Shown here: one piece after another, positions 3,376 to 56,500 of the stretch
Numbering within the stretch: position 1 is the first letter of the stretch
Layout of the letters: each line of letters opens with the position of its first letter
NCBI RefSeq assembly: GCF_003182475.1
Contig: NZ_QGTS01000001.1
Coordinates: forward strand, 167,980 to 231,979
Length of the DNA stretch: 64,000 bases
Direction: 5' to 3'
DNA from: Mangrovibacter plantisponsor
GTDB taxonomy: Bacteria; Pseudomonadota; Gammaproteobacteria; Enterobacterales; Enterobacteriaceae
The notes under the pieces: generated by a model
Told to the model about the DNA's origin: nothing
The model's input: the letters and a program-made list of their open reading frames with translations, nothing else
Database searches by the model: none
Made by a program: the position numbers and the translations under genes

Positions 3376-4052
3376 TGCCACATGCATTGGTCACTGGCGC
3401 CAGTTCAGGAATTGGTGCAGCCATTACAGAACGGCTTCTGGAAAGCGGCTGGTCAGTGACAGGAATCAGCCGTCGCCCGGCCAGCTACCCGAGCCAGGCA
3501 TTTCATAACCTGAATGTGGACATGAACGATTTACCCGCGCTCACCGCTGCGGTAACAGCCCTTGAAACAGTTGATGCTGTCATTCATGCTGCAGGTTTTA
3601 TGGCTGCTGCCCCACTGGGTATGCTGGATGCCGAACTCAGTGAACAATTGTGGCGCATCCATGTTCTGGCACCACAAGTATTACTTAATACCCTGGCACC
3701 ACGCATGCCCACAGGTGGGCGCATTGTGCTAATTGGCAGCCGTACCGCCCATGGTGCCGCCGGGCGTTCACAATATGTGTCCTGCAAAGCCGCAGTAATT
3801 GGTATGGTACGCAGTTGGGCCGCAGAATTGGCCCCCCGCGGCATAACAGCAAATATTGTGGCACCGGGTGCAACGCTTACACCAATGCTCTCTCAACCAG
3901 GCCGTGTTTCATCGCCACCTAAACTTCCCCCTATTGGCCGCTATATCGACCCAAAAGAAGTGGCTGCACTGGTCAATTTTTTGGTCTCGCCAGAAGCGGG
4001 GGCAATAACCGGCCAGGAATACATTATTTGTGGTGGCGCATCATTATCCTGA
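3375..4052 (+). CDS. SDR-family short-chain dehydrogenase/reductase
   Basis: N-terminal TGASSGIGAA Rossmann motif, 225 aa. ATG overlaps the upstream TAA (TAATG). Confidence 0.8.
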
Positions 4053-4571
4053 CCACTGTGCGCGTATATCGCTAAGGTTATACGCGCCATTTCAGCACCT
4101 TACCAGGCCAATAATCAGGCAGGAATTATTCTTTTAATTTGTCGATACCCACCACACAAAACACCCAGCCTAACGCATTGATATGTTTTATATTTTTTAA
4201 AACAAATAAAATATTACACTATATTCAATTGCAGGTAAAAATTGCCAACATTAGTTAGCCAGCCGGGAAAATTAAGCAGAATATTAGCACTTGCTTTGAA
4301 GAGAGATTATGGTAGGGTTGATATTAACAACATATTTACACAGGAAAAAACAAGATAACTAAAACACCCATCCTCATTTTAGCACAGTGCAAAAAACCGT
4401 TAAAAATTGATGGCGTTAATTTTGTTTTCACCATCATCCACATGAGCAAAAATCAATAATACGCCTGCTGCATATCAGCGCCGCCGCATTATTGATGTGT
4501 GCTCCAAAAAATCATAAATCCGCTCTGCTATGGCGGAGAATAATATGCACAACATCATAAGGAACCGTTCC

Positions 4572-5579
4572 ATGAAAAAGACCTTTCCTGTTGCACTCAC
4601 CTTAATTTCCACCGTACTGATGGCAACCGGGTCCGCAAAGGCTGCTGACTTACCCGGCAAAGGTGTCACTGTTTACCCTGTGCAAAGCCCACTCCCGGAA
4701 GAATCCTTTCAAACTGAACTGGTGAACCGCGCGCTTGAAAAATTAGGCTACGATGTTCAGCCAACCAAAGAAGTGGATTACAACGTTGCGTATACAGCCA
4801 TATCAGAGGGCGATGCCACTTATATGGCAGTCAACTGGGAGCCGTTACAGAAAGACATGTACAACTCGGCCGGCGGCGACAAGAAGTTTTACCGCAAAGG
4901 GACGTATATTAGTGGTGCCGCACAAGGGTATTTAATTGATAAGAAAACAGCAGATAAATACCATATTACTGATCTCTCACAGCTTAAAGACCCGAAAATA
5001 GCCAAACTATTTGATGCGGATGGCGATGGTAAAGCCGATTTAACCGGTTGTAACCCTGGCTGGAATTGTGGGTCGGTTATTGCCACACAAATAAAGGCAT
5101 ATGGGTTAAGCAATACTGTCGAGCAGAATCAGGGGAACTACTCCGCAATTATTGCAGAAACCCTGACTCGTTATAAAGCAGGCAAACCGGTATTATATTA
5201 TGCCTGGACGCCTTACTGGGTTAGTTTTGTATTAAAATCGGGTAAGGATGTGGTATGGCTCACCGTGCCATTCTCCGCTAATCCTGGCGGGTTAAAAGGG
5301 CTGGATACCACACTGCCAAATGGCAAGAATTATGGTTTCTCCGTTAATAACGAACACATTGTGGCAAATAAACAGTGGGCGGAGAAAAACCCGGCGGCAG
5401 CCAAACTGTTTGCCATTATGAAACTCCCCCTGGCAGATGTGAACGCCCAGAATCTACGGATGCATGAAGGCCAGGACTCAGCACAGGATGTTCAGCAACA
5501 GGTCGATGGCTGGATTAAAGCGCACCAAAGTACCTTCGATGGCTGGGTAAAACAGGCTATGGCTGCCGCGGGTAAATAA
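4572..5579 (+). CDS. proX: glycine betaine/proline betaine-binding periplasmic protein ProX (orphan; no proV/proW nearby)
   Basis: Near full-length similarity to E. coli ProX ([37 protein letters not shown]..). Signal peptide present. Start at Met15 of ORF 4530..5579 behind an AAGGAA motif. Confidence 0.85.
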
Positions 5580-5651
5580 CCTGGTTAATTGTGTTACCCC
5601 CCGCCAACTGCGGGGTAACCAAACTCAGAAAAGGTTACCTGAAGAGTACAA

Positions 5652-5690
5652 CCAGAAAGAAACCCGCGGGTTTCTTTCTGGTTTGTTTAT
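5652..5690. terminator. perfect 15-bp inverted repeat hairpin plus T-tract; bidirectional terminator between proX and the EF-hand gene
   Basis: ccagaaagaaacccg/cgggtttctttctgg followed by tttgtttat. Confidence 0.7.
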
Positions 5691-5727
5691 GTACCACATA
5701 CCACTGTGTATCACCGTATCGCGAATA

Positions 5728-6000
5728 CTAACGGTGGGCAGCGACAAATGATTCAATCTGCGCCTGAGTGATACTGCCCGTACCCTGGGTATCAATTTCA
5801 CTAAAATGCTTCGCCACCATCGGCATACCCGCCTGCGCTTCTTGCAATGTCAGCTTACCATCATGGTTGGTATCCGCTTGTGAAAACCGCTGAGCCAATC
5901 TTGCAGATTGAGTGGCAGCAACAGCCAGTGTGGTACTGCCAGCCAGTGTGGTACTGCCAGCCAGTAACAACCCGGCCATTAAAAATGTACGTATTTTCAT
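5728..6000 (-). CDS. small secreted EF-hand calcium-binding protein
   Basis: Signal peptide. Canonical EF loop DTNHDGKLTLQE plus a second degenerate loop DTQGTGSITQAQ. 90 aa. Confidence 0.7.
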   Translation of the reverse strand: MKIRTFLMAGLLLAGSTTLAGSTTLAVAATQSARLAQRFSQADTNHDGKLTLQEAQAGMPMVAKHFSEIDTQGTGSITQAQIESFVAAHR

Positions 6001-6319
6001 TGTAGCATCCTTTTATTTTCGCAGAATTGCGGCGCTATTTATTCACCACAATTTTATTTATGGTTACCAGAATAAAATTATGTCACCTGATGTCGCCATG
6101 AATAAAACCAGTGACATGCCATGACATAATTCACCACTTCTGAAGTATGGAAAATAAAAATAGAATAATCAGTGCAGAGCAAACTATGGCCAACTGAGCA
6201 CCACAAGCCATTATTTTCGGTAATAAACTTTTGGTAATAAATACAGCCCACACACAGCAACCACTTAATTATCAACCTAAAAACTGAAATTCATTATTTA
6301 TTAATAAAGGCTTAGCACG

Positions 6320-6748
6320 ATGAATAATAAATCAATGAATAATAAACGATGCCAGCAGCTTATCGGTGTCCTGGGGTTATTATGCACTTTTTTAACCGTG
6401 GCACCCAGGCTTATGGCTGAAGAGCCGGAGCACATCAACCTGGTTTCTCCTGCCAGGCTGGTTATTATTACCCCGGCACATCCCCCGCGTTTGTTAGTGG
6501 CAGCACCACCTCCTCCTGTAGGCTCCAGAATGCCCCGTGGAATGTATTGGAAACCCAGGCCCCCTCATGGGCCTTCTCAGCCAGGCCATCCCGGGCAGCC
6601 AATGGCACCCAATGGGCAACCAGGAATGAAACAGCAACAACCAGGGCAACCGGGAGGTTCGCCGCAACAACCCGGGCAGCCACAACAGCCAGAAGGCGCG
6701 CCACAACAAGGTGAGCCGGGGTATGTTGCTCCAGCCACACATGCCTGA
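6320..6748 (+). CDS. secreted Pro/Gln/Gly-rich low-complexity protein of unknown function; first gene of the efflux operon
   Basis: Signal peptide (..APRLMA-EE). C-terminal PGQP/QQP repeats with scattered His/Met. 15 bp upstream of the MFP gene. Confidence 0.5.
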   Translation: MNNKSMNNKRCQQLIGVLGLLCTFLTVAPRLMAEEPEHINLVSPARLVIITPAHPPRLLVAAPPPPVGSRMPRGMYWKPRPPHGPSQPGHPGQPMAPNGQPGMKQQQPGQPGGSPQQPGQPQQPEGAPQQGEPGYVAPATHA

Positions 6749-6763
6749 GGAACGGTAACGATA

Positions 6764-7951
6764 ATGCAGTGGCCTGTTACTCTCAAACAAACGTTACTCA
6801 ATAACGCGGGCAAAATCAGCGTGCTTTTGCTGCTGGCTGCCATGCTGTGCACTATTGGGTATCTGTTACCTAAACGCACCCAGGTGTTTCGCCCAACGCG
6901 TGAAGTCCTGCACCAGTCATTCAGCGGCGCAGGCGAAATGGCAGCACTTAACCAGGCACAACTGTCCAGCAAAACGCCATTGCGCCTGCAGTCTCTGCTG
7001 GTTGATACGGGCGATAAAGTCAAACGAGGTGAACTCCTTGCCCAGTTTGATGACCAGGAGCTGCAGGCAGATGAGCAGGCAGCCAAAGCCGCCCTTGATG
7101 GAGCAGTGAGTAGTGAAGCCGCGGCACACACCAACTGGCTGCGCCAACAGCATATTGAGCAACAGGCCAAAGATGATGACCGCCGCGCACATATTCTGGC
7201 CCGCACAGGTAAAGGCGCGATTTCACAAAGCGACCTGGAAAATGCCAAAACCAGCCTGCAGACAGCCCAGCTAGACCTGGCGTCAGCCCGGTTCCAGTGG
7301 CAGCAGGCACAACACGCCCATACAGAGGCACAGGCACAATGGCGCGCCGCTCAGTCGCGCCTTGCGGATACCCGAATGGTGGCGCCATTCAGCGGCTTAA
7401 TTACCGGCAGAAAGTGCAGTGAAGGCGACATTATCTCCCCCGGCACAGCCTGTATTGAGTTAACCGATACTCAATCGCTGTACATCAGTGCACGCTTTGA
7501 TGAATCAGTACTGGGCACCATCCAGGTGGGTGACAGTTGCGAGGTTTTTCTGCGCTCACACCCGAACCAGGCCCTGCACGGCTATGTGGAGCGGATAAAC
7601 CGCAGCGTAGACAGCGACACGCGCGAATTCACCGCCAATATTGGGTTACCGGCCCTGCCCCCTGGCTGGGCGCTGGGTGAGCGAGCGGTTGTAGTTCTTC
7701 ACCACACCAGTGCGCAGCCTGTGCTTACCCTGCCAGAGCACCTGCTCACCCATGCAAACAGAGAAACCTGGGTTTGGTTGCTGGACAAAGGGCATGCGGT
7801 CTTGCGCAAGGTGCAAATTGGGCAACACACCGAACAGGCCAGTGAAATCACACAAGGGGTAACACCAGACAGCCTGGTACTGCCACCGGCCCACTACCGC
7901 CCCGGGCGGCGTATCAGCCCGGTCAGGAGCGAAGATGAATCTCGCGATTAA
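6764..7951 (+). CDS. efflux periplasmic adaptor / membrane fusion protein (HlyD family)
   Basis: N-terminal TM anchor, coiled-coil region rich in Q/A, C-terminal beta-barrel-like region. Overlaps the permease gene. Confidence 0.75.
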   Translation: MQWPVTLKQTLLNNAGKISVLLLLAAMLCTIGYLLPKRTQVFRPTREVLHQSFSGAGEMAALNQAQLSSKTPLRLQSLLVDTGDKVKRGELLAQFDDQELQADEQAAKAALDGAVSSEAAAHTNWLRQQHIEQQAKDDDRRAHILARTGKGAISQSDLENAKTSLQTAQLDLASARFQWQQAQHAHTEAQAQWRAAQSRLADTRMVAPFSGLITGRKCSEGDIISPGTACIELTDTQSLYISARFDESVLGTIQVGDSCEVFLRSHPNQALHGYVERINRSVDSDTREFTANIGLPALPPGWALGERAVVVLHHTSAQPVLTLPEHLLTHANRETWVWLLDKGHAVLRKVQIGQHTEQASEITQGVTPDSLVLPPAHYRPGRRISPVRSEDESRD

Positions 7952-24068: not shown

Positions 24069-24539
24069 TCCCCTGCTCCCCCTGTCAATTTTTGACTGGT
24101 TGGTTAAGTTTCTCTTGGTTATGCCATTTTTGTGCCAGAGTGAAAAACCGCAAGAACACAGCACGTTTAAAGCAATTGGCGGCAGGATATGAACTTTTAT
24201 TGACCATATGTGGTGCAAAAAACAGCAGAGTTGCTTTGTGATGGGGCAAGGAAAGTACGTGGGCAATAAAACTGTGGTCAGGGCTGCCCAAAAAGTGATG
24301 AAAAAGGCAGCAACTGCCATCCTATAAAAGGCTCGCAGTTGCAGTTAGTGACAGATGCCCACAACCGCTGTGGCAGTTGGTGGAAAAACCAGCAAAAATA
24401 CCGTCATGGCTATCAGAATGACTAATATCTGTAGCCCGATGCTGAACATTCTTTCTGCCAGAACAGCAACACTGGCATAACCGGCAAAAAACGGTATGGT
24501 TTGCTGATGAAAATTGTTGATGACTTTCAGGAACTCCCC

Positions 24540-29638: not shown

Positions 29639-30475
29639 TCAGCGCGCAACATGAATGCGTTTTTTAACATCTTTCAGAAATAACGTGAGCGTGAAACTCA
29701 TTAATACCAGTAAACTCCATGAGCTCCATTTGCCCACATGAACCACTGACCAGGCACCCAGTTGGTTGGGGTAACGCCACACGCCCATAAATGTGCTGAT
29801 GTTCTCCGCCAGCCAGATAAAAAAACCGACCAGCATAAACCCAACCAGTAACGGCATTTTGCGGGGTTTATCGTAAGGCGTGAACACCACTTCACTACGC
29901 GCATACAGCCCAACCACCAGCGCAGTAATATACCAGCGGTAATCGCCAATATAATGATGAGTGAAAAAATTCAGGTAAATCAATAATGAGGCAATAACCG
30001 CAAACCCCAGAGGCGGGTGGTGGCGAATATGTAAATCCAGCAAACGCCAGGCCTGAATAATATAACTGCCAACGGCGGCATACATAAACCCGGCAAATAA
30101 CGGCACGCCGCCTACTTTACTCCAGGCAAAATCCGGGTAACTCCAGGCACCAATAGCAGAAGAGGTTTTAAATAACTCAAGAATAAACCCAACAATGTGA
30201 AACAAGGTGATGGCTTTAAACTCATCCCAGGTTTCCAGTTTGGTTGCCAGCATCAGTGCCTGAATACCCAGGGCAATAATCAGCAGCAGATCATAACGCG
30301 CCAGCGGGCCAACCCCGCTGCGTGGCACCACAAACATCGCCAGAAAGAAAAGCCCGGCAAACAAGCAGGCCCGGGCTTCTTTCAGGCCAAACCACAACAA
30401 TTCAAAGAAAAAGCGCCGCACACCGGACATCAACCGGTTGGAGCCCGGGTACGGAAGTAATTCGGGGGGTGTCAT
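29639..30475 (-). CDS. DUF817-family integral membrane protein
   Basis: Polytopic, 278 aa, sequence typical of the DUF817 family. Confidence 0.65.
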   Translation of the reverse strand: MTPPELLPYPGSNRLMSGVRRFFFELLWFGLKEARACLFAGLFFLAMFVVPRSGVGPLARYDLLLIIALGIQALMLATKLETWDEFKAITLFHIVGFILELFKTSSAIGAWSYPDFAWSKVGGVPLFAGFMYAAVGSYIIQAWRLLDLHIRHHPPLGFAVIASLLIYLNFFTHHYIGDYRWYITALVVGLYARSEVVFTPYDKPRKMPLLVGFMLVGFFIWLAENISTFMGVWRYPNQLGAWSVVHVGKWSSWSLLVLMSFTLTLFLKDVKKRIHVAR

Positions 30476-30618: not shown

Positions 30619-31404
30619 TTACCCCATTACCGTGCGGTACAGCAGGCTGTCGAGCGCCCCTGTTTTACCCGTTGCGCTCAGGGGTAATTCCGGTGGGATT
30701 TCCCCTCTTGCCAGTTCGTGTTCAATAAACGCATGCAAGTGCTCCCTGCGCGGGCCATACCCGGCTTCCCCGGTGCGCTGTTTAATTTCCAGTAACTGGT
30801 CTATTTCTGCCAGAAGGCTGGCATCAGTAACTGTTTTTGCCAGTAATTCGCGGAACAGTACGGGTGGTTGCCCCAGCCCGGCCTCAATCCAGCGCACTGC
30901 CAGTAAAGGCCGCAGCACATAAAAGTACTTTTTCAGTCGTACCGAGTCACCCTGCAAATAACCGCGAAAGTTTTTGCGCGCCATTGAGTAATAGTGCCAG
31001 CGAGCTCTGACAGGTGAAAACCAGTCTGGTTGCTGTGCACGCAACTCGGCCATCACACTTTCATCCTGCTGGTAAACCACCGGGGAGTTCAGCCATTCGA
31101 GCAATGTAGGGTTGGCGGCTTTTAATAGCCCCAGTGCTTTGCGCCACTCCCAGCCACTGACATCCAGCTCATCATCAATGGGAAGCTCGATGACATCGCG
31201 TTGCGGTTCAACCCGCAGGTACCACTCAGCCGGGTGAACATATAAAAACCGGACATCGTAGTCGCTGTCTGGTGAGGCAAAGCCCCACCCACGGCTCCCG
31301 GATTCACAGGCATAAAGCACTTTCACCCCAAACCGGCTTTCTACAGATTGTAATGTGTGCCGCACACGGCTTTGCATGGCGGCGTCCACTGCTAATATTG
31401 CCAT
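30619..31404 (-). CDS. pol-beta superfamily nucleotidyltransferase (RlaP/PF10127-like predicted NTase)
   Basis: Start at Met14 behind GGAG. NTase motif YACESGSRGWGFASPDSDYDVRF (hG[GS]...D.D). About 32 bp downstream of the SPFH gene. Confidence 0.7.
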   Translation of the reverse strand: MAILAVDAAMQSRVRHTLQSVESRFGVKVLYACESGSRGWGFASPDSDYDVRFLYVHPAEWYLRVEPQRDVIELPIDDELDVSGWEWRKALGLLKAANPTLLEWLNSPVVYQQDESVMAELRAQQPDWFSPVRARWHYYSMARKNFRGYLQGDSVRLKKYFYVLRPLLAVRWIEAGLGQPPVLFRELLAKTVTDASLLAEIDQLLEIKQRTGEAGYGPRREHLHAFIEHELARGEIPPELPLSATGKTGALDSLLYRTVMG

Positions 31405-31435
31405 TTTCTTCTCCTTTTTGTGGCCTGTTGCCGGG

Positions 31436-32566
31436 TTACACATTAATTTTCACTAAACCCTGTAATACCTGGTCCAGCCCGCCAAATACTGAAATTTTAT
31501 CAATACGTTCAGCCACTTTTTCCAGGGTTTCCATTTCTTTAAGCCGCAACGCGACCGGGTTGTTTTCCATCACTTTGGCTGTATTCAGCAAAGATCGGGT
31601 TGCTGCTGTTTCTTCACGACGGCGGATGACATTTGCCTGCGCTGATTTTTCCGCTTCCACCAGCCGGGTTAAAATCGCCTTCATATCACCAGGCAAGATA
31701 ATGTCCTTCACACCGACAGACGCAATTTCAATACCAAAGAGAGCCAGCCGCTGTGTTACCTGCTCACCCACGATGCCGTCCAGCACCAGTTTGTCTTCCA
31801 ACAATTCGTCCAGTGAGCGGGTTCCCACGGCCTGGCGCAGCGCGAACTGGACTTCGCGGTACAGGTATTCCAGTGGCTTAGTCAGTTGAGCAAATGCGCT
31901 CAATACATCCTGGTAGCGCCAGTTCACCGCCATATTCAGGCGAATGCTGACTTTATCTTTTGTCAGGATCTCCTGGCCGCTCACTTCCAGCGCCTGTAAG
32001 CGCATATCCACCACTTCGGCTTCCACCTGGTGGTTTACCTTCCAGTACGCATGAACGCCGGGTGGTAACAGTTCCTGGGTTACACCATCTATTTTCAGTA
32101 CCCCAGTATGCCAGGCAGGGACTTGTACGCTCAGCACAAGGTCGCGGCCTTTAACCGCTGCACTACCAGTGCGTGATTTCACCAGCAGGTTTTGCAGCGC
32201 TTCTGGCAACTTCACATCCTGAACTTCTACGCGTTCCAGGCGTAATGCGCCCTGGTTCTGCCAGTACAGACGGCGCGTTGAAGGGGGAATCAGTGCCTGT
32301 AACACGCCATCGCAGTACAACACACCCACTTCATCTTCACCGGTGTCTGCTTCCAGGCAATAACGCGCCACCCACTCGGGTTTGTAGTGGCGTAAATAGC
32401 CACTGAGTTCATCATCCACCATGCTGCCATCCAGTTTTATCAACTGCACTTCGGCAGCCGAAAACCAGGGTAAACGGTGCTGGCCCGCTTCCAGAATTTT
32501 TTCAATTTCTTCGTGTTGCGCCAGCAAACCAATCTGACCTTTCCGTATTGTGATTTTTTTAGCCAT
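31436..32566 (-). CDS. SPFH/band-7 (slipin-like) domain protein with a unique ~150-aa N-terminal domain; no TM segment
   Basis: Start at Met27 behind AAGGAAA. C-terminal half matches SPFH cores (..IRLNMAVNWRYQDVLSAF.. ..RLALFGIEIASVGVKDIILPGDMKAIL.. ..EAEKSAQANVIRRREETAA..). Confidence 0.75.
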   Translation of the reverse strand: MAKKITIRKGQIGLLAQHEEIEKILEAGQHRLPWFSAAEVQLIKLDGSMVDDELSGYLRHYKPEWVARYCLEADTGEDEVGVLYCDGVLQALIPPSTRRLYWQNQGALRLERVEVQDVKLPEALQNLLVKSRTGSAAVKGRDLVLSVQVPAWHTGVLKIDGVTQELLPPGVHAYWKVNHQVEAEVVDMRLQALEVSGQEILTKDKVSIRLNMAVNWRYQDVLSAFAQLTKPLEYLYREVQFALRQAVGTRSLDELLEDKLVLDGIVGEQVTQRLALFGIEIASVGVKDIILPGDMKAILTRLVEAEKSAQANVIRRREETAATRSLLNTAKVMENNPVALRLKEMETLEKVAERIDKISVFGGLDQVLQGLVKINV

Positions 32567-32733
32567 GTTGTTTTCCTTTTTCTTAATACCGGTGCAACCA
32601 CGGATGCAGGGGCGAAACCGCAGGGGAAACGTTGTTTTGCCCACGGCCCGGCACCATTACCGGTGGTTGCCTGGGGGCTACTCCATACTGGCTGTAACCC
32701 GTTGTACTGCGAAAGTTGTTTCACTCATTCAAT

Positions 32734-32810
32734 GTGAGGTGCGAACCCAGGAATCGAACCTGGCATGACCGACTTTTCGCTAATGCCGTTCTGCTGGCGG
32801 AACACACCCC
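32734..32810 (-). ncRNA. tRNA-like element (canonical T-arm plus acceptor-like helix) inside the ~310-nt leader of the SPFH/NTase transcript; candidate Y-RNA-like module or tRNA remnant
   Basis: Minus-strand CCAGG-TTCGATT-CCTGG (32763..32747) is a textbook T-stem/T-loop. Flanking GGGGUGU (32810..32804) can pair with GCACCUC (32742..32736), giving a ~77-nt tRNA-sized unit. D and anticodon arms are degenerate and there is no encoded CCA. Confidence 0.4.
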
Positions 32811-32890
32811 GGATAACGACCGTATCGTTCCTGGTGCGCTGGCGGAGAGTTATTAACTCCGGCAATTCCAGCATGCTGACGTAGATAACA

Positions 32891-32907
32891 TTGCCAGTTC
32901 CGTGCCA
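32891..32907 (-). promoter_or_regulatory. sigma54-type -24/-12 promoter (TGGCACggaacTGGCA) pointing away from rtcR toward the SPFH/NTase unit
   Basis: Minus-strand 5'-TGGCACGGAACTGGCAA-3' has GG and GC at the canonical 10-bp spacing. About 140 bp from the rtcR start, mirroring the rtcR/rtcBA arrangement in E. coli. Confidence 0.55.
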
Positions 32908-33043
32908 AAAACCAGAAAAGCGCAAAATAAATTCATAACCAATTGAAAAATATATTATTTATAATATAAAAGATGAATATCACTTGTTCGCCACCAGGCA
33001 TTTTTATATCCTTATTTATCGTATTTTATCTTTTGGGATAAAC

Positions 33044-34627
33044 ATGAATAAACGCCGGGTTGTGATAGGTGTACTGGGAACTGAACTGGACAGGCGAGGA
33101 AAACGCGCCAACCGGATGAAAAAGTGGCGCCCGACTGTTGGGTTGTGCATGCAGGAAGACATGCCGGTTGACCGACTGGAATTATTACACCAGCCCACAG
33201 ATATCAACCTGGTGTCTGCGGTGCAGCAGGATATTCAACAGGTTTCACCAAAAACGACGGTAAACACCCATGCTATTGCGATTAATGACCCGTGGGATTT
33301 TGAAGAGGTGTATGCCGCATTTCTCGATTTCGCCACACACTACCCGTTCGACACCGGGCATGAAGAGTACCTGGTGCATATCACCACAGGTACACATGTG
33401 GCACAGATTTGCTGGTTTTTGCTAACCGAGGCCCGCTACCTGCCCGCCAGCCTGTTACAAACCAGCCCGGCCAAACGCCAGGGAGATGAACCGGTTTCTC
33501 CCGCAGGCACCTGTTCCACAATTGACCTCGACCTGAGCCGTTACACTAAACTCACCAGCCGCTTTCAACATGAACAGCAGGAGTCGGTGTCATTTCTGAA
33601 ATCTGGCATTGAAACCCGCAATGCAGACTTTAACCGGACTATCGACCAGATTGAGCGGGTGGCACTGCGTTCATCTGCACCGGTATTGCTTACCGGGCCA
33701 ACCGGTGCCGGGAAGTCGTTTCTGGCCCGGCGTATTTACCAGTTACGCCAGGCCCGCCATTTAGTTAAAGGGCAGTTTGTCGCCGTGAACTGTGCAACTT
33801 TGCGGGGCGATAACGCCATGTCTGCGTTATTCGGCCATGTGAAAGGAGCCTTTACTGGTGCGCTACAGGCCAGAAGTGGCTTGCTACGTGAGGCCGACGG
33901 CGGCGTTCTGTTTCTGGATGAAATTGCCGAACTGGGGCTGGATGAACAGGCAATGCTTCTGAAAGCTATCGAAGAGAAAACGTTTTTCCCTTTTGGTTCA
34001 GATAAAGAAGTCCACAGTGACTTCCAATTGATTGCCGGTACGCACCGCAATATGCATGAATGGGTGGCTCAGGGCCATTTCAGGGAAGATTTATTCGCCC
34101 GTATTAATATGTGGACGTTCCGCTTACCTGGCCTTGCTGAACGCCGGGAAGATATCGCGCCAAATATTCGTTATGAGCTGGAGCGCTATGCCCGCGACCA
34201 CCAGGCACAAATTCGCTTTGATAAAGAAGCGCTCACCCGCTACCAGAATTTTGCCTGTTCAGCCGGAGCACAGTGGCGCGGTAACTTCCGCGAGCTTGGC
34301 AGCTCAATCGCTCGCATGGCAACCCTTGCAGAACAAGGGCGCATTACGGAATCACTGGTAGATGAAGAAATTGCCCGGCTGCAGGCAAACTGGAACCCTT
34401 CTGCACATTCAGCGCCGCCATTACCCGTCGATATCAGCCAACTGGATGTGTTCGACCAGCGCCAGTTAGAAACTGTAATTGAGGTTTGCCGGCGGTCCGC
34501 AACCCTTTCCCAGGCCGGGCGAGAATTATTTGCCGTATCACGGCAGAAAAAAGCCAACCCAAATGACGCCGACCGGCTTCGCAAATACCTGGCGCGCTTT
34601 GGGCTCAATTGGGATGATGTGAAATAG
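33044..34627 (+). CDS. rtcR: sigma54-dependent transcriptional regulator RtcR (CARF-like N-domain, AAA+ sigma54 activator domain, C-terminal HTH)
   Basis: Alignable along its whole length with E. coli RtcR (..KWRPT..LC.Q.....DRLELLH.. ..NPWDFEEVYA.. ..THVAQICWFLL.EARYLPA.L.Q.SP.. ..DLDLSRY.. ..GPTGAGKSFLARRI..Q..QARH.. ..GAFTGA.. ..DADRLRKYLARFGL.W..). Start at Met21 of ORF 32984..34627. Confidence 0.9.
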   Translation: MNKRRVVIGVLGTELDRRGKRANRMKKWRPTVGLCMQEDMPVDRLELLHQPTDINLVSAVQQDIQQVSPKTTVNTHAIAINDPWDFEEVYAAFLDFATHYPFDTGHEEYLVHITTGTHVAQICWFLLTEARYLPASLLQTSPAKRQGDEPVSPAGTCSTIDLDLSRYTKLTSRFQHEQQESVSFLKSGIETRNADFNRTIDQIERVALRSSAPVLLTGPTGAGKSFLARRIYQLRQARHLVKGQFVAVNCATLRGDNAMSALFGHVKGAFTGALQARSGLLREADGGVLFLDEIAELGLDEQAMLLKAIEEKTFFPFGSDKEVHSDFQLIAGTHRNMHEWVAQGHFREDLFARINMWTFRLPGLAERREDIAPNIRYELERYARDHQAQIRFDKEALTRYQNFACSAGAQWRGNFRELGSSIARMATLAEQGRITESLVDEEIARLQANWNPSAHSAPPLPVDISQLDVFDQRQLETVIEVCRRSATLSQAGRELFAVSRQKKANPNDADRLRKYLARFGLNWDDVK

Positions 34628-48549: not shown

Positions 48550-48870
48550 TTGCGCTAACCTCTATTATGCTTCACTGAAAGAACGAAAACGGTACATTGC
48601 TCTGAATCGTTTTCCATCACTTACAGAATAAGCAACAGACGTGCCATTTGTCGTTCACATAAACGCATTTAAAATGACACGCAGTTAACATAATGGGCGC
48701 AAATGTCACAAATCAGAATATATCGATCCTCCTTATAGGTTGGTCAGCCCCAGGATCGCCAATACAGTGCAAAAACTGATTCATTTTGGATATCCCCCCT
48801 GTTTTTTGCACTATTAACGCTCTTCTGGCGTTCACCGCTCAGACTGTTTTACCAAACTCAACAGTTTTTC

Positions 48871-53538: not shown

Positions 53539-56500
53539 ATGAGCCAGAAAAATCGTCTGCCATCTGGTGGCAGAATAGACCGTTCCAGAGCACTGAAATT
53601 TATGTGGAATGGCCGCCAGTATACCGGATATGAAGGTGACACTGTTGCCTCTGCTCTGCTGGCAAACGGTGTGGATATTGTCGGGCGGAGTTTCAAATAC
53701 AGCCGCCCCCGAGGGATTGTCGCAGCCGGAGCAGAAGAGCCAAATGCTGTATTACAACTGGGTGCGACAGAAGCCACTCAGGTGCCAAATGTAAGAGCAA
53801 CCCAGCAGTCACTTTACAATGGGCTGGTATGCTCTGCGACAAACGGCTGGCCCAGCGTAGAATCAGACCTGATGGGGCTGGTAGGCAATATCGGTGGCAA
53901 AATGATGCCTCCGGGGTTCTACTATAAAACATTCATGTACCCACAATCCATGTGGCCAACTTACGAGAAATTCATTCGTAAAGCTGCCGGGCTGGGTCGT
54001 GCTCCGCGTGAAAAAGATCCCGACACCTACGATGTAATGAATCAGCACTGCGATGTGATGATTGTTGGTGGTGGGCCTGCAGGATTAATTGCTGCACTGG
54101 TTGCTGCACGCAGCGGCGCACGCGTGATTCTGGCAGACGAGCAAAATGAATTGGGCGGGCACCTGCTTTCCAGCCGGGAAACCATAGATGGTAAACCTGC
54201 CGCAGACTGGGTGGCAGACATTGTCTCTGAGTTATCCGGGCTGCCTGAAGTCACTATTCTGACGCGTTCTGTCGTGAACGGTTACCACGACCATAACTTC
54301 CTCACCATCAACGAGAATAAATCAGATTTCCAGGGCGACCGGGCTTTGTCGGGTAAAGTTCGCCAGCGTATGCACCGTGTCCGGGCTCACTGGGTTATTC
54401 TTGCGACTGGTGCCCAGGAACGCCCTCTGGTTTATGGTAACAACGATGTCCCTGGTTGCATGGTGGCATCAGCTATATCAACCTATATCAATCGCTATGG
54501 TGTTGTGCCTGGCAGCCAGTTGGTGCTGATGACCACTAACGATAGCGCTTACCAGACGGCGCTGGACTGGGCTGATGCCGGTCGTGAAGTCATTGCTGTC
54601 GTGGATACTCGCGCCAACCCACAGGGTGAGCTGGCGGCAATGGCGCGTAAACGCGGCATCCGGATTATTACCGGCAGTGCAGTGATTGATGTTCAGGGCA
54701 AAAAACGCGTCTCTGGTGTGACCATCGCCAGTATCGATAGCAAAGGTGATGCCGTTACCGGCAATATCTCTACACTGCGCTGTGATACTGTCGCCAGTTC
54801 AGGCGGCTGGAGCCCGGTGGTTCACCTCGCCTGCCATACCGGCAGCCGGCCGGTTTGGAACGATGAGGTGATTGGTTTTCTCCCCGGGCCTACCCGCCAA
54901 AAACAGATCACGGCGGGAGGAATTAATGGCCAATATGCGCTAAGCAGCGTGTTACTGGAAGGCATTGAAGCCGGGCAAAATGCCGCCGCTAATTTGGGGC
55001 TGACTCCTGGCGAAATAGTGCTTCCGGAGGTGAAAACCTGGCGCGAAGACAAACCCGCAGCCCTGTTTTACATTCCGCATACTAAGCCGATTAGCCGTGC
55101 TCCCAAGCAATTCGTTGACTATCAGAATGACGTGACTGCCGCTGGCATTGCTCTGGCGGCACGTGAAGGTTTTGAAGCCATTGAACACATTAAGCGTTAT
55201 ACCGCAATGGGCTTTGGGACCGACCAGGGGAAACTGGGTAACATCAATGGCATGGCCATTGCTGCCAGAGTCATGGGGAAAAGCATTCCTGAAACCGGCA
55301 CTACCGTTTTCCGCCCTAACTACACGCCAATAGCATTTGGCGCGATTAGCGGGCGTAACTGTGGGCCGCTGTTCGAACCGAAGCGCTTCACTGCCATGCA
55401 TAAATGGCACGTGCAACATAACGCAAAATTTGAAGATGTCGGCCAATGGAAACGCCCGTGGTATTACCCCAAACCAGGCGAAACCATGCAGCAGTCCCTC
55501 GACCGGGAATGCCGGGCTGTGCGTTCAGGCGTTGGCATTCTTGACGCTTCCACTCTCGGTAAAATCGATATTCAGGGTAAAGATGCCCGTGAGTTTCTCA
55601 GCCGTGTGTACACCAATGCATGGGCGAAGCTTGGCGTTGGGAAGTGCCGCTACGGGCTGATGTGTGGTGAAGGCGGCATGGTGTTTGACGATGGCGTCAC
55701 CTCCTGCCTGGCGGAGAACCACTTCCTGATGACCACCACCACCGGGGGCGCGGCTCATGTTTTAGAGTGGCTTGAACTCTACCACCAGACTGAATGGCCT
55801 GAATTAGAGGTATTTTTTACCAGCGTCACTGACCACTGGGCAACCATGACTATCTCCGGGCCGGACAGCCGGAAATTACTGTCAGAACTGTGCCTGGATA
55901 TCGATCTGGATAAAGACGTCTTCAAATTTATGGACTGGCGCGAAGGCACGGTGGCTGGTGTACCGGCTCGGGTGTTCCGTATTTCCTTCACGGGTGAACT
56001 GTCATTCGAAGTTAACGTTCAGGCAAACTACGGATTGCACGTTTGGGAAAAACTGTTTGAACACGGTGCCAAATACAACCTCACGCCCTATGGCACGGAA
56101 ACCATGCATATCTTGCGTGCCGAGAAAGGGTTCATCATTACGGGCCAGGATACCGATGGTTCAGTCACCCCGCTTGATCTCGGTATGGGGTGGTGTGTCG
56201 CAAATACCAAACCTTTCAGTTATATCGGCAAGCGCGGCATGGCCCGGGAAGATTGCGTTCGCGAACAGCGCAAGCAACTTGTTGGTCTGAAAACACGCGA
56301 CCCGATGACCGTTCTTCCGGAAGGGGCGCAGGCAGTGGCAGACCCGAAACAACCGGTTCCAATGGATCTGCTCGGGCATATCAGCTCAAGCTACTGGAGT
56401 GCCAACCTTAATCGCAGTATTGCGATGGGATTTATCAAAGGTGGCCTGGATCGTATGGGAGAAACCGTTTACTACCCGCTGGCTGATGGCCGGGTGATCG

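What the first reader, a model, noticed from the sequence alone, without database searches (positions are those of the whole stretch)
32725..32912. tRNA-like T-arm/acceptor mimic and sigma54 promoter in the leader upstream of the SPFH gene
On the minus strand, 32763..32747 reads CCAGG-TTCGATT-CCTGG, a perfect tRNA T-stem/T-loop (GGTTCGATTCC). Flanking GGGGUGU and GCACCUC segments can close a 7-bp acceptor-like helix, giving a ~77-nt tRNA-sized module with degenerate D/anticodon arms and no CCA. It sits about 70-140 nt downstream of a TGGCAC-N5-TGGCA sigma54-type element (32907..32891) and about 170 nt upstream of the SPFH start codon. Salmonella Y RNAs (YrlA) encoded in the RtcR-controlled operon are known tRNA mimics, so this could be a Y-RNA-like regulatory or decoy RNA, or a processing signal (RNase P/Z, TruB). 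It could equally be the 3' remnant of a tRNA gene marking an old integration site for the rtcR module. A 66-codon ORF overlapping it on the same strand is probably spurious.
Basis: seen in the sequence. Interest (0 to 1): 0.7.

Follow-up and report, generated by a model that had tools for sequence, protein, structure and literature searches.

The report
Reduced tRNA-like element in RNA-repair leader
The hairpin is a real, conserved remnant of the tRNA-like RNA predicted in 2016 to accompany SPFH/Band-7 genes of RtcR-controlled RNA-repair operons, but here only the T arm survives, inside a long structured leader RNA that no database describes.

Summary
The T arm (32763..32747, minus strand) and the sigma54 motif (32907..32892) are both real and conserved. 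GGTTCGAnTCC lies upstream of the SPFH gene in about 79 of 80 related genomes. The promoter motif is found where RtcR is present.

The proposed 7-bp acceptor helix and the tRNA-sized module are not supported. Its 5' strand belongs to a strongly covarying upstream domain, M1. Its 3' strand starts a downstream hairpin. ARAGORN, Rfam and a covariance model built from relatives recognise only the T arm.

In Pseudomonas, Burkholderia and Betaproteobacteria the same position holds one or two full tRNA-like cloverleafs. [quoted passage not shown] The window, from a Mangrovibacter, carries a reduced enterobacterial variant in an operon cut down to SPFH-RlaP, with no RtcB or RtcA.

The element sits between two conserved structured domains with no Rfam family: M1, found in 82 of 89 loci, and M3. 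About 30% of complete E. coli genomes carry the same leader.

An attachment-site remnant and the 66-codon ORF are both rejected. The function is inferred, not shown: most likely a tRNA-elbow handle on an RNA cofactor of SPFH/RlaP.

The parts
33001..33042 (.). Candidate RtcR upstream activating sequence. Minus strand reads TTTATCCCAAAAGATAAAATACGATAAATAAGGATATAAAAA, with inverted TTATC/GATAA-type repeats, about 95-135 nt upstream of the -24 element.
   Evidence: Similar motifs sit at the same distance in enterobacterial loci, Pseudomonas L019, the E. coli slipin locus L089 (no adjacent rtcR) and the E. coli rtcBA promoter. That RtcR binds here is an inference.
32892..32907 (-). Sigma54-type promoter TGGCACG-N4-TGGCA (-24 GG at 32906..32905, -12 GC at 32894..32893). 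Predicted transcription start near 32882..32880.
   Evidence: The core is invariant in 20 enterobacterial leaders. A motif is present in 66 of 88 loci and is missing where RtcR is missing. The start site is inferred from the usual spacing.
32793..32872 (-). Leader domain M1, a three-way junction.
- P1: GCUGG 32872..32868 with CCAGC 32797..32793.
- H1: 32863..32842.
- P2: CGCACC 32838..32833 with GGUGUG 32808..32803, plus CAG 32841..32839 with CCG 32800..32798.
- H2: GGAACGA 32831..32825 with UCGUUAUCC 32819..32811.
   Evidence: The model is 90.3% paired with 15 compensatory pairs and 0 of 500 shuffles as good. In 51 sequences 18 of 21 pairs are compensatory. CM R3 hits 32891..32788 at 64.1 bits and gives one hit per locus in 82 of 89 SPFH loci. 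The single-sequence MFE reproduces the model. There is no Rfam hit.
32764..32792 (-). Connector AGAACGGCAUUAGCGAAAAGUCGGUCAUG. It holds a D-arm-like relic, UAGC...GUCGGU (compare UAGCUCAGUCGGGUAGAGC in relatives). It also holds GAAC (32791..32788), which could pair with GUUC (32746..32743) next to the T stem.
   Evidence: Sequence comparison with alignment A5 and with long-type enterobacterial leaders. GAA/UUC is kept in L001, L004 and L006 but shows no compensatory change, so the pairing is unproven.
32747..32763 (-). T arm: stem CCAGG/CCUGG and loop UUCGAUU. This is the only tRNA-like part that survives here.
   Evidence: GGTTCGAnTCC is invariant in alignments of enterobacterial leaders. Stem pair 156-168 shows GC:16, AU:3, GU:1. 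It is the only part matched by CM R1.
32722..32746 (-). Spacer GUUCG (32746..32742) followed by the hairpin CACCUCA (32741..32735), loop CAUUGAA, UGAGUG (32727..32722).
   Evidence: The hairpin changes compensatorily in M. yixingensis L001 to CCUCUU-AUGGG-AAGAG. In other enterics a covarying hairpin lies directly against the T stem.
32674..32700 (-). Hairpin GGGUUAC...GUAGCCC between the T-arm module and M3.
   Evidence: Predicted by RNAalifold for the long-type group.
32594..32670 (-). Leader domain M3, a long irregular hairpin. The outer helix is GCAACCAC/GUGGUUGC. Conserved internal loops and an apical GGCAAAA...UUCCCC are present. It ends about 17 nt before the Shine-Dalgarno sequence.
   Evidence: RNAalifold shows many compensatory pairs in 20 enterics. 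CM R2 scores the window at 77.6 bits and also hits Providencia, Proteus and Snodgrassella at 28-35 bits. The MFE reproduces it. There is no Rfam hit.
31436..32566 (-). SPFH/Band-7 (slipin) gene, 376 aa, with a family-specific N-terminal region of about 145 aa.
   Evidence: Pfam PF01145, E=5.6e-27. 97% identical to the M. yixingensis slipin.
30619..31443 (-). RlaP nucleotidyltransferase gene. It overlaps the SPFH stop by 8 nt.
   Evidence: Pfam PF10127, E=5.6e-94. Biochemistry of relatives: they add 1-2 NMP to RNA 3'-OH (PMC12776372).
32984..34627 (+). rtcR, transcribed divergently. The real start is probably the ATG at 33044.
   Evidence: Pfam RtcR plus Sigma54_activat. NCBIfam NF038308 equivalog at 832.8 bits against a cut-off of 650, aligned from residue 23.
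32725..32925 (-). 66-codon ORF, judged spurious.
   Evidence: Its TTG start lies upstream of the promoter, so it is outside the predicted transcript. In the same frame relative to the T loop, relatives carry stops 6-12 nt upstream, for example L082, L083, L010, L011 and L003.

Best explanation
The flagged span is the 5' part of a roughly 315-nt structured leader RNA of an RtcR/sigma54-controlled SPFH-RlaP operon in a Mangrovibacter.

The T-arm hairpin is the reduced enterobacterial descendant of the Band-7-associated tRNA-like RNA. Relatives carry one or two full cloverleafs at this position. Here the anticodon arm and half of the D arm are gone, and only the T arm is clearly kept, possibly with a D-loop-like GUCGGU and a short stacked helix. 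It lies between two conserved domains, M1 and M3.

Proposed mechanism:
1. RtcR, activated by damaged tRNA fragments, turns on the promoter. This is inferred from the motif, the adjacent RtcR and the Salmonella and E. coli literature.
2. The leader is co-transcribed with the SPFH-RlaP message. This follows from the layout and the absence of a terminator.
3. The leader, or pieces cut from it, acts as an RNA cofactor of the SPFH scaffold and the RlaP nucleotidyltransferase. The T loop would serve as a tRNA-elbow-type handle, either for a tRNA-binding partner or for an internal tertiary contact, much as YrlA serves Ro60. This step is inference only.
For: Homology and position:
- A T-loop motif lies upstream of SPFH in about 79 of 80 species-level loci. 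Enterobacterales have one copy; other lineages have two copies 70-75 nt apart.
- In non-enterics these are tRNA-like by ARAGORN and by Rfam tRNA at 40-62 bits.
- The proximal copy forms a covarying cloverleaf that is 91.4% paired, with 0 of 500 shuffles as good.
- The order promoter, M1, tRNA-like element(s), SPFH is shared.
- Only the T arm of that model aligns in the window and in all other enterics tested.

Selection on the T arm:
- GGTTCGAnTCC is invariant across about 24 enterobacterial genera while the flanks diverge.
- The same leader is present in 1632 of 5426 complete E. coli genomes.

Regulation:
- The RtcR equivalog is adjacent.
- The promoter motif is conserved and tracks the presence of RtcR.
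- A shared upstream motif also occurs at the E. coli rtcBA promoter.
- RtcR is activated by tRNA halves ending in 2',3'-cyclic phosphate (PMC7790460).

An RNA in its own right, not only an mRNA leader:
- In loci that lack RtcR, M1 and the tRNA-like elements follow arrays of ordinary tRNA genes.
- M1 and M3 are specific to SPFH operons. The E. coli rtcBA leader is only about 35 nt and lacks them.

Precedent:
- YrlA is a tRNA mimic in RtcR operons (PMC4201824).
- b7a-tRNA has been proposed to be functionally redundant with YrlA.
Against: - No expression, processing or binding data exist for any member. The b7a-tRNA itself has never been validated experimentally.
- In this sequence the nearest-neighbour MFE prefers a competing GGCAU/AUGCC hairpin over the T stem.
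- Several enterics keep only 3 G-C pairs in the T stem.
- P. entomophila L044 has lost the T loop altogether but keeps M1, and the Xenorhabdus T loop has decayed. The T arm is therefore dispensable in some lineages.
- This operon has no RtcB or RtcA within 64 kb, so a role in ligation cannot be direct.
- The SPFH structure prediction was too poor (pLDDT 45.9) to look for an RNA-binding domain.
Confidence: 0.65

Rival explanations
1. The region is purely a cis-acting mRNA leader. M1, the T arm and M3 would control the stability, processing or translation of the SPFH-RlaP message. The T arm would be a cleavage or chaperone signal for RNase P, RNase Z, RNase E or TruB, and no separate RNA would have a function.
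For: - The elements lie in the 5' UTR on the coding strand, with no terminator before SPFH.
- M3 ends about 17 nt before the Shine-Dalgarno sequence.
- The distance from promoter to start codon is conserved.
Against: - The Shine-Dalgarno sequence is not sequestered in the M3 model.
- In RtcR-less loci the same RNAs follow tRNA gene arrays, which suggests tRNA-style processing into separate RNAs.
- The relatives' cloverleafs have conserved D and T arms typical of a folded tRNA body, not of a cleavage signal.
Confidence: 0.25
2. The element is a decoy or sensor. The tRNA-like RNA would be a bait for tRNA-targeting nucleases, either soaking them up or yielding cyclic-phosphate fragments that feed back on the RtcR CARF domain.
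For: [quoted passage not shown] In other relatives it is replaced by UUCG or GNRA tetraloops.
Against: - The window's element has no anticodon arm at all, so it cannot bait an anticodon nuclease.
- The operon lacks RtcA, which would make cyclic ends.
Confidence: 0.08
3. One reading: a roughly 77-nt tRNA-sized module closed by the 7-bp GGGGUGU/GCACCUC acceptor helix.
For: The two strands are complementary in this sequence, and the single-sequence MFE of 32825..32725 pairs them.
Against: - The fold's z-score is only -1.21.
- The helix is 55.8% paired across 20 enterics. Slid controls for the whole tested structure gave 37-60%.
- The 5' strand is used by the covarying M1 helix P2.
- The 3' strand is used by a covarying hairpin.
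- The CM, ARAGORN and Rfam see no cloverleaf.
Confidence: 0.04
4. The element is the 3' remnant of a tRNA gene marking an old integration site, or a decaying relic with no function.
For: - The rtcR-leader-SPFH-RlaP module sits in different neighbourhoods in different genera, which is consistent with mobility.
- The T arm has been lost or has decayed in P. entomophila and Xenorhabdus.
Against: - The T arm is internal to the module, always between M1 and SPFH.
- It is invariant over about 24 enterobacterial genera.
- There is no tRNA gene and no second copy in the window, and no blastn match to any E. coli sequence, tRNA genes included.
Confidence: 0.03

Closest known systems
[quoted passage not shown] Known here only through its description in bioRxiv 10.1101/312249 and my memory of the abstract.
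   Same: - It lies next to an SPFH/Band-7 gene in an RNA-repair-type operon with RtcR and RlaP.
- It occupies the same position as the full tRNA-like RNAs of Pseudomonas, Burkholderia and Betaproteobacteria.
- It has the same T-arm sequence.
   Different: - b7a-tRNA is said to 'strongly resemble an authentic tRNA'. Here only the T arm remains.
- The operon has no RtcB.
- The flanking M1 and M3 domains are not mentioned in the text I could read.
[quoted passage not shown] 2014, PMC4201824; Wang et al. 2018 preprint)
   Same: - It is a tRNA mimic in an RtcR/sigma54 operon with a conserved T arm.
- In short-type enterobacterial relatives, including E. coli, the order matches YrlA's TSL-AS-DSL: T arm, closed acceptor-like hairpin, then a small hairpin with a GG loop.
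   Different: - The operon contains no Ro60/Rsr gene.
- There is no clear GNCGAAN0-1G motif.
- Rfam searches returned no Y RNA or tRNA hit over the leaders.
- In the window itself the GG-containing piece lies 5' of the T arm, and the hairpin is separated from the T stem by 5 nt.
- There is no full D arm.
tRNA acceptor/T-arm minihelices and other T-loop modules
   Same: - It is a T stem-loop with the canonical UUCGAUU loop.
- It could stack on a short helix (GAAC/GUUC).
- The distal copy in Burkholderia and Betaproteobacteria is such a minihelix: an acceptor stem and T arm joined by a 13-14 nt connector.
   Different: The stacked helix in the window is only 4 bp and is not supported by covariation. 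There is no 3' CCA and no evidence of RNase P or CCA-enzyme recognition.
E. coli rtcBA sigma54 promoter with RtcR
   Same: It has a TGGCACG-N4-T(T/G)GCA core, a divergent or trans-acting RtcR, and similar upstream TTATC/GATAA-type repeats.
   Different: The rtcBA leader is about 35 nt and unstructured. The SPFH-type leader is 310-560 nt with M1, tRNA-like element(s) and M3.

Membership tests
Canonical tRNA gene | Cloverleaf recognised by tRNA detectors or covariance models | tested here: not met
   ARAGORN found 0 genes in the window. Rfam RF00005 gave no hit at gathering score or at E<=10.
Canonical tRNA gene | 7-bp acceptor stem directly abutting the T stem | tested here: not met
   The proposed helix leaves a 4-nt gap after the T stem. 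It is 55.8% paired across relatives, and both strands are used by other covarying helices.
Canonical tRNA gene | T arm with a GTTCRANYC loop | tested here: met
   Located at 32763..32747. Conserved with compensatory stem changes.
Canonical tRNA gene | D arm and anticodon arm | tested here: not met
   CM R1 aligns only model positions 52-70. Only a UAGC...GUCGGU relic resembles the 5' half of a D arm.
b7a-tRNA (Band-7-associated tRNA-like RNA) | Encoded next to a Band-7/SPFH gene of an RNA-repair operon | tested here: met
   It lies 181 nt upstream of the SPFH start codon on the same strand, with RlaP downstream and RtcR divergent.
b7a-tRNA (Band-7-associated tRNA-like RNA) | Same position and flanking elements as the bona fide tRNA-like RNAs of related loci | tested here: met
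   The order promoter, M1, T-loop element(s), SPFH is shared in enterics and non-enterics.
b7a-tRNA (Band-7-associated tRNA-like RNA) | Strongly resembles an authentic tRNA | tested here: not met
   Non-enteric copies score 40-62 bits with Rfam tRNA. The window and all other enterics tested match only at the T arm.
b7a-tRNA (Band-7-associated tRNA-like RNA) | RtcB ligase in the same operon | tested here: not met
   tblastn found no RtcB or RtcA anywhere in the 64 kb window. Other enterics have SPFH-RtcB-RlaP.
YrlA / bacterial Y RNA | Adjacent Ro60/Rsr (TROVE) gene | tested here: not met
   The operon genes are SPFH, RlaP and possibly DUF817. The rest of the window was not scanned for TROVE.
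YrlA / bacterial Y RNA | Permuted order: T arm, closed acceptor stem-loop, D arm | tested here: inconclusive
   Short-type relatives have a T arm, an abutting covarying hairpin and a UGGUU mini-hairpin, comparable with the YrlA sequence. In the window the hairpin is 5 nt away and no GG loop follows.
YrlA / bacterial Y RNA | GNCGAAN0-1G motif (putative Ro60 contact) | tested here: not met
   The nearest sequence is UAGCGAAAAG (32782..32773), which does not fit the pattern (motif taken).
YrlA / bacterial Y RNA | Match to a YrlA covariance model | not testable with these tools
   Rfam gave no hit, but I could not confirm that Rfam holds a YrlA model. The Chen 2014 model is not held.
Sigma54 (RpoN) promoter under RtcR | -24 GG and -12 GC elements with canonical spacing | tested here: met
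   TGGCACGGAACTGGCA, with one departure from TTGCW (G for T).
Sigma54 (RpoN) promoter under RtcR | Conserved in orthologous loci and linked to the activator | tested here: met
   The core is invariant in 20 enterics. It is present in 66 of 88 loci and absent where RtcR is absent. The adjacent RtcR is an equivalog.
Sigma54 (RpoN) promoter under RtcR | RpoN- and RtcR-dependent transcription | not testable with these tools
   Needs transcript mapping in rpoN and rtcR mutants.
tRNA-derived attachment-site remnant | Lies at the boundary of an inserted element and matches the 3' end of an intact tRNA | tested here: not met
   It is internal to the module in all loci. There is no tRNA gene and no repeat in the window. 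The rest of the genome was not available.

The most novel reading that the evidence does not exclude
The whole 310-560-nt leader (M1, 0-2 tRNA-like modules, M3) may be an undescribed, widespread multi-domain non-coding RNA that forms an RNP with the SPFH scaffold and RlaP, a Band-7 counterpart of the Ro60-Y RNA particle.

On this reading M1 is the constant protein-binding core. It is present in 82 of 89 loci, including those without RtcR and those that have lost every T loop.

The tRNA-like part would be a variable accessory. It appears in several states: tandem cloverleafs with hypervariable anticodon loops, an acceptor/T-arm minihelix, a YrlA-like permuted mini-elbow (E. coli, Citrobacter, Klebsiella), and a lone T arm (this window). 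Together these would document how Y-RNA-like mimics arise from dimeric tRNAs.
Probability: 0.35. Interest if true: 0.75.

Novelty: new variant of a known kind. Interest (0 to 1): 0.5.

Why it matters
RNA-repair operons under RtcR are well known, but the roles of their SPFH proteins, RlaP enzymes and associated RNAs are not. The b7a-tRNA has never been validated experimentally.

This analysis shows three things:
- The associated RNA is much larger than a tRNA. It has two strongly covarying domains with no Rfam family.
- The tRNA-like part can shrink to a T arm while staying invariant. That points to the tRNA elbow or T loop as the functional handle.
- About 30% of complete E. coli genomes carry the system, so it can be tested in a tractable host.

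The series of forms also gives concrete intermediates for the proposed origin of YrlA-type Y RNAs from tandem tRNAs.

Tried and rejected
- ARAGORN and Rfam, at gathering score and at E<=10, on the window and on 21 loci: nothing over the enterobacterial leaders.
- Single-sequence folding of the element and of the whole leader: not better than shuffles, z = -1.2 and -0.95.
- Megablast of the leader against E. coli found nothing. Only 'distant' blastn with the Citrobacter leader found the E. coli copies.
- RNAalifold on the full leader first suggested GGAACG pairing with the invariant GUUCC. I rejected this because Pseudomonas and Betaproteobacteria support the local H2 hairpin and P2 instead.
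- The hairpin GUCA...UGAC after M1 competes with P1. I did not adopt it, because P1 covaries across clades.
- CGCACCUC as an anti-Shine-Dalgarno sequence pairing with the SPFH ribosome-binding site: the complementarity is inconsistent between species, so I dropped it.
- Fitting the GNCGAAN0-1G Ro60 motif to UAGCGAAAAG fails.
- The M3 covariance model does not reach Pseudomonas or Burkholderia, so M3 homology there rests only on visual similarity.
- AlphaFold2 of SPFH with 12 sequences gave pLDDT 45.9, so no fold search was run. The N-terminal 145 aa have no PDB relative.
- Burroughs & Aravind 2016 and the Chen 2014 supplements are not held. I therefore could not check whether enterobacterial loci were already listed as b7a-tRNA or YrlA.
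Full report
**Setting.** The window comes from a Mangrovibacter. Its SPFH protein is 97% identical to that of M. yixingensis. Three genes frame the finding:
- rtcR on the plus strand at 32984/33044..34627. It matches Pfam RtcR and Sigma54_activat and the NCBIfam RtcR equivalog at 832.8 bits.
- An SPFH/Band-7 gene on the minus strand at 32566..31436.
- An RlaP nucleotidyltransferase gene at 31443..30619 that overlaps the SPFH stop by 8 nt.

tblastn found no RtcB or RtcA anywhere in the 64 kb.

**Observation.** The T arm CCAGG-UUCGAUU-CCUGG is at 32763..32747. Its core occurs once in the window against 0.09 expected. The sigma54 motif TGGCACGGAACTGGCA is at 32907..32892. GGGGUGU and GCACCUC exist and are complementary, but 4 unpaired nucleotides would separate the helix from the T stem. 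ARAGORN finds no tRNA, and Rfam finds nothing at gathering score or at E<=10. Single-sequence folds are no better than shuffles.

**Comparative evidence for the T arm.** A scan of one genome per species returned 80 loci with an SPFH homologue, out of at least 576 found. I added eight enterobacterial loci and an E. coli locus.
- GGTTCGAnTCC lies upstream of SPFH in about 79 of 80 loci. Enterobacterales have one copy at -180 to -265. Pseudomonas, Burkholderia and Betaproteobacteria have two copies 70-75 nt apart.
- In the non-enterics these are tRNA-like. ARAGORN calls them, often with odd anticodon loops, and Rfam tRNA scores them at 40-62 bits.
- An alignment of 59 proximal copies gives a cloverleaf that is 91.4% paired, with compensatory changes in all five anticodon-stem pairs.
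- Their acceptor stem is conserved for only 4-5 bp.
- The 'anticodon' loop is hypervariable or replaced by UUCG or GNRA tetraloops.
- The distal copy is a full cloverleaf in Pseudomonas. In Burkholderia and Betaproteobacteria it is an acceptor/T-arm minihelix with a 13-14 nt connector.

[quoted passage not shown] They note that it has not been validated experimentally.

**What is left in the window.** A covariance model of the proximal copies (R1) aligns only its T-arm positions 52-70 to the window, at 12.6 bits. The same holds for the other enterics tested. The T-loop core is invariant in enterobacterial leader alignments, and the stem shows compensatory changes such as CCAGG/CCUGG, CGGG/CCCG and UCAGG/CCUGA. 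Upstream, UAGC...GUCGGU resembles the 5' half and loop of the relatives' D arm. GAAC (32791..32788) could pair with GUUC (32746..32743) next to the T stem, but no compensatory change supports this.

**The acceptor helix is refuted as the conserved fold.** Most of the flagged span is a separate domain, M1 (32872..32793), made of P1, hairpin H1, and P2 continuing into hairpin H2.
- On 20 enterobacterial leaders the model is 90.3% paired, has 15 compensatory pairs, and no shuffle out of 500 does as well.
- On 51 sequences from all clades, 18 of 21 pairs are compensatory. One pair, for example, reads UA:31 and CG:20 with none broken.
Slid controls for the whole tested structure, T stem included, range from 37% to 60%.
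- Its 3' strand begins a hairpin, CACCUCA/UGAGUG, that becomes CCUCUU/AAGAG in M. yixingensis.
- The single-sequence MFE of M1 reproduces the comparative model.

**The rest of the leader.** An M1 covariance model (R3) gives exactly one hit per locus in 82 of 89 SPFH loci, always upstream of SPFH on its strand. These include 16 RtcR-less loci that were not used to build the model. The 64-kb window has a single hit, the M1 described above, and the E. coli rtcBA locus has none. The rtcBA leader is only about 35 nt. M3 (32670..32594) is a long hairpin with conserved internal loops. It has many compensatory pairs in enterics, and its model also hits Providencia, Proteus and Snodgrassella but not the GC-rich clades. 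Neither M1 nor M3 has an Rfam family.

**Variants among relatives.** Short-type enterics (Citrobacter, Klebsiella, Phytobacter, Cedecea, Pluralibacter, E. coli) have three elements in a row:
- a T arm with a 3-5 bp stem;
- an abutting hairpin that covaries, as UUCAUU/AAUGAA, UUCACU/AGUGAA, UCACC/GGUGA and UUCGCC/GGUGAA;
- a mini-hairpin with a UGGUU loop, whose stem varies as AAC/GUU, AUA/UAU, UAC/GUA and GAACAC/GUGUUC.

This is the order found in YrlA: T stem-loop, closed acceptor stem-loop, D stem-loop. P. entomophila has lost the T loop entirely but keeps M1. The Xenorhabdus T loop has decayed.

**Regulation.** The promoter core is invariant in 20 enterics. A motif is found in 66 of 88 loci and is missing where RtcR is missing. 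In those loci arrays of ordinary tRNA genes lie upstream instead. About 95-135 nt upstream of the promoter, at 33042..33001, lie TTATC/GATAA-type repeats. Similar repeats occur in other enterics, in Pseudomonas, in the E. coli slipin locus that has no adjacent rtcR, and at the E. coli rtcBA promoter. I read these as a candidate RtcR binding site. RtcR is known to be activated by 5' tRNA halves ending in 2',3'-cyclic phosphate (PMC7790460).

**Distribution in E. coli.** 1632 of 5426 complete genomes carry the leader with slipin and RlaP. In the one locus I inspected (strain SCU-113, L089) the module lies between yjbD and lysC next to a zeta-toxin family gene, and nothing is annotated in its leader.

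**Rejected alternatives.**
- Attachment-site remnant: the T arm is internal to the module in all loci, with no tRNA gene or repeat in the window and no blastn match in E. coli.
- The 66-codon ORF: it starts upstream of the promoter, and its frame is broken in relatives.

**Mechanism.**
- Shown: homology of position and sequence with the b7a tRNA-like RNAs, purifying selection on the T loop, and covarying M1 and M3.
- Inferred: RtcR/sigma54-dependent transcription from about 32881. Also inferred is that the leader, or pieces of it, acts as an RNA partner of SPFH and RlaP, with the T loop as a tRNA-elbow-type handle. RlaP relatives add 1-2 NMP to damaged RNA 3' ends (PMC12776372).
- Caveats: there are no expression data, a competing hairpin is favoured in this sequence, the T arm is dispensable in some lineages, and the SPFH structure model was too poor to use.

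**Verdict.** This is a real feature and a reduced variant of a known but unvalidated class. The larger leader RNA, M1 in particular, is the more novel observation.

Noticed in passing
window 32793..32872 (-); CM hit 32788..32891: M1 is a roughly 100-nt three-way-junction RNA domain with strong covariation. It occurs once per locus in 82 of 89 SPFH loci across Gamma- and Betaproteobacteria, with or without RtcR, and is absent from the E. coli rtcBA leader. It has no Rfam family.
   Followed up: yes
window 32594..32670 (-): M3 is a long hairpin with conserved internal loops and an apical GGCAAAA...UUCCCC, just upstream of the SPFH ribosome-binding site. It covaries in enterics, and its model also hits Providencia, Proteus and Snodgrassella. 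It has no Rfam family.
   Followed up: partly
window 33001..33042: TTATC/GATAA-type repeats lie about 95-135 nt upstream of the sigma54 promoter. Similar repeats occur in other SPFH loci, in the E. coli slipin locus without an adjacent rtcR, and at the E. coli rtcBA promoter. This is a candidate RtcR binding site.
   Followed up: partly
window 32984..33046 (+): The mechanical rtcR ORF starts at TTG 32984, but family models align only from residue 23. An in-frame ATG at 33044 follows directly after the repeat region, so it is probably the real start.
   Followed up: partly
window 24122..24137 (-), 48631..48646 (-), 53772..53787 (-): Three further TGGCAC-N5-TKGCW sigma54-like motifs. The window has 4 in total against 0.39 expected by chance.
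   Followed up: no
L035, L038, L051, L052, L055, L057, L059, L068, L074, L076 (about 1-2 kb upstream of SPFH): In betaproteobacterial loci without RtcR or a sigma54 motif, arrays of 2-12 ordinary-looking tRNA genes lie directly upstream of M1, the tRNA-like elements and SPFH. This suggests co-transcription and tRNA-style processing.
   Followed up: partly
alignment A5 (proximal tRNA-like copies of L018-L080): [quoted passage not shown] There are 17 different triplets among 29 seven-nt loops, and UUCG or GNRA tetraloops elsewhere. The acceptor stem is conserved for only 4-5 bp, and no CCA is encoded.
   Followed up: yes
L089 (E. coli SCU-113) 3788..7203; 1632 of 5426 E. coli genomes: About 30% of complete E. 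coli genomes carry the leader with slipin and RlaP. In the inspected locus (SCU-113) it lies between yjbD and lysC, next to a zeta-toxin family gene and without an adjacent rtcR. RefSeq annotates nothing in that leader.
   Followed up: partly
L002, L003, L005-L009, L081-L086, L089 (about 60 nt starting at the T arm): Short-type enterics show a T arm, an abutting covarying hairpin and a UGGUU mini-hairpin. This is the same order as the YrlA tRNA-like domain and may be an intermediate between tandem tRNAs and Y-RNA-like mimics.
   Followed up: partly
L044 4660..4780; L087 1280..1300: P. entomophila keeps M1 but has no T loop at all. In Xenorhabdus hominickii the T loop has decayed to GGGTTCTATCGG.
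   Followed up: partly
proteins P0003, P0004, P0005, P0007, P0103 (alignment A1): Xenorhabdus and related SPFH proteins (521-524 aa) carry an internal duplication of the family-specific N-terminal region of about 145 aa.
   Followed up: no
window 29639..30475 (-): A DUF817 gene follows RlaP after a 143-nt gap on the same strand. A short tblastn match suggests it also follows RlaP in M. yixingensis. It is not found within 5 kb in the other loci. Whether it belongs to the operon is unknown.
   Followed up: no
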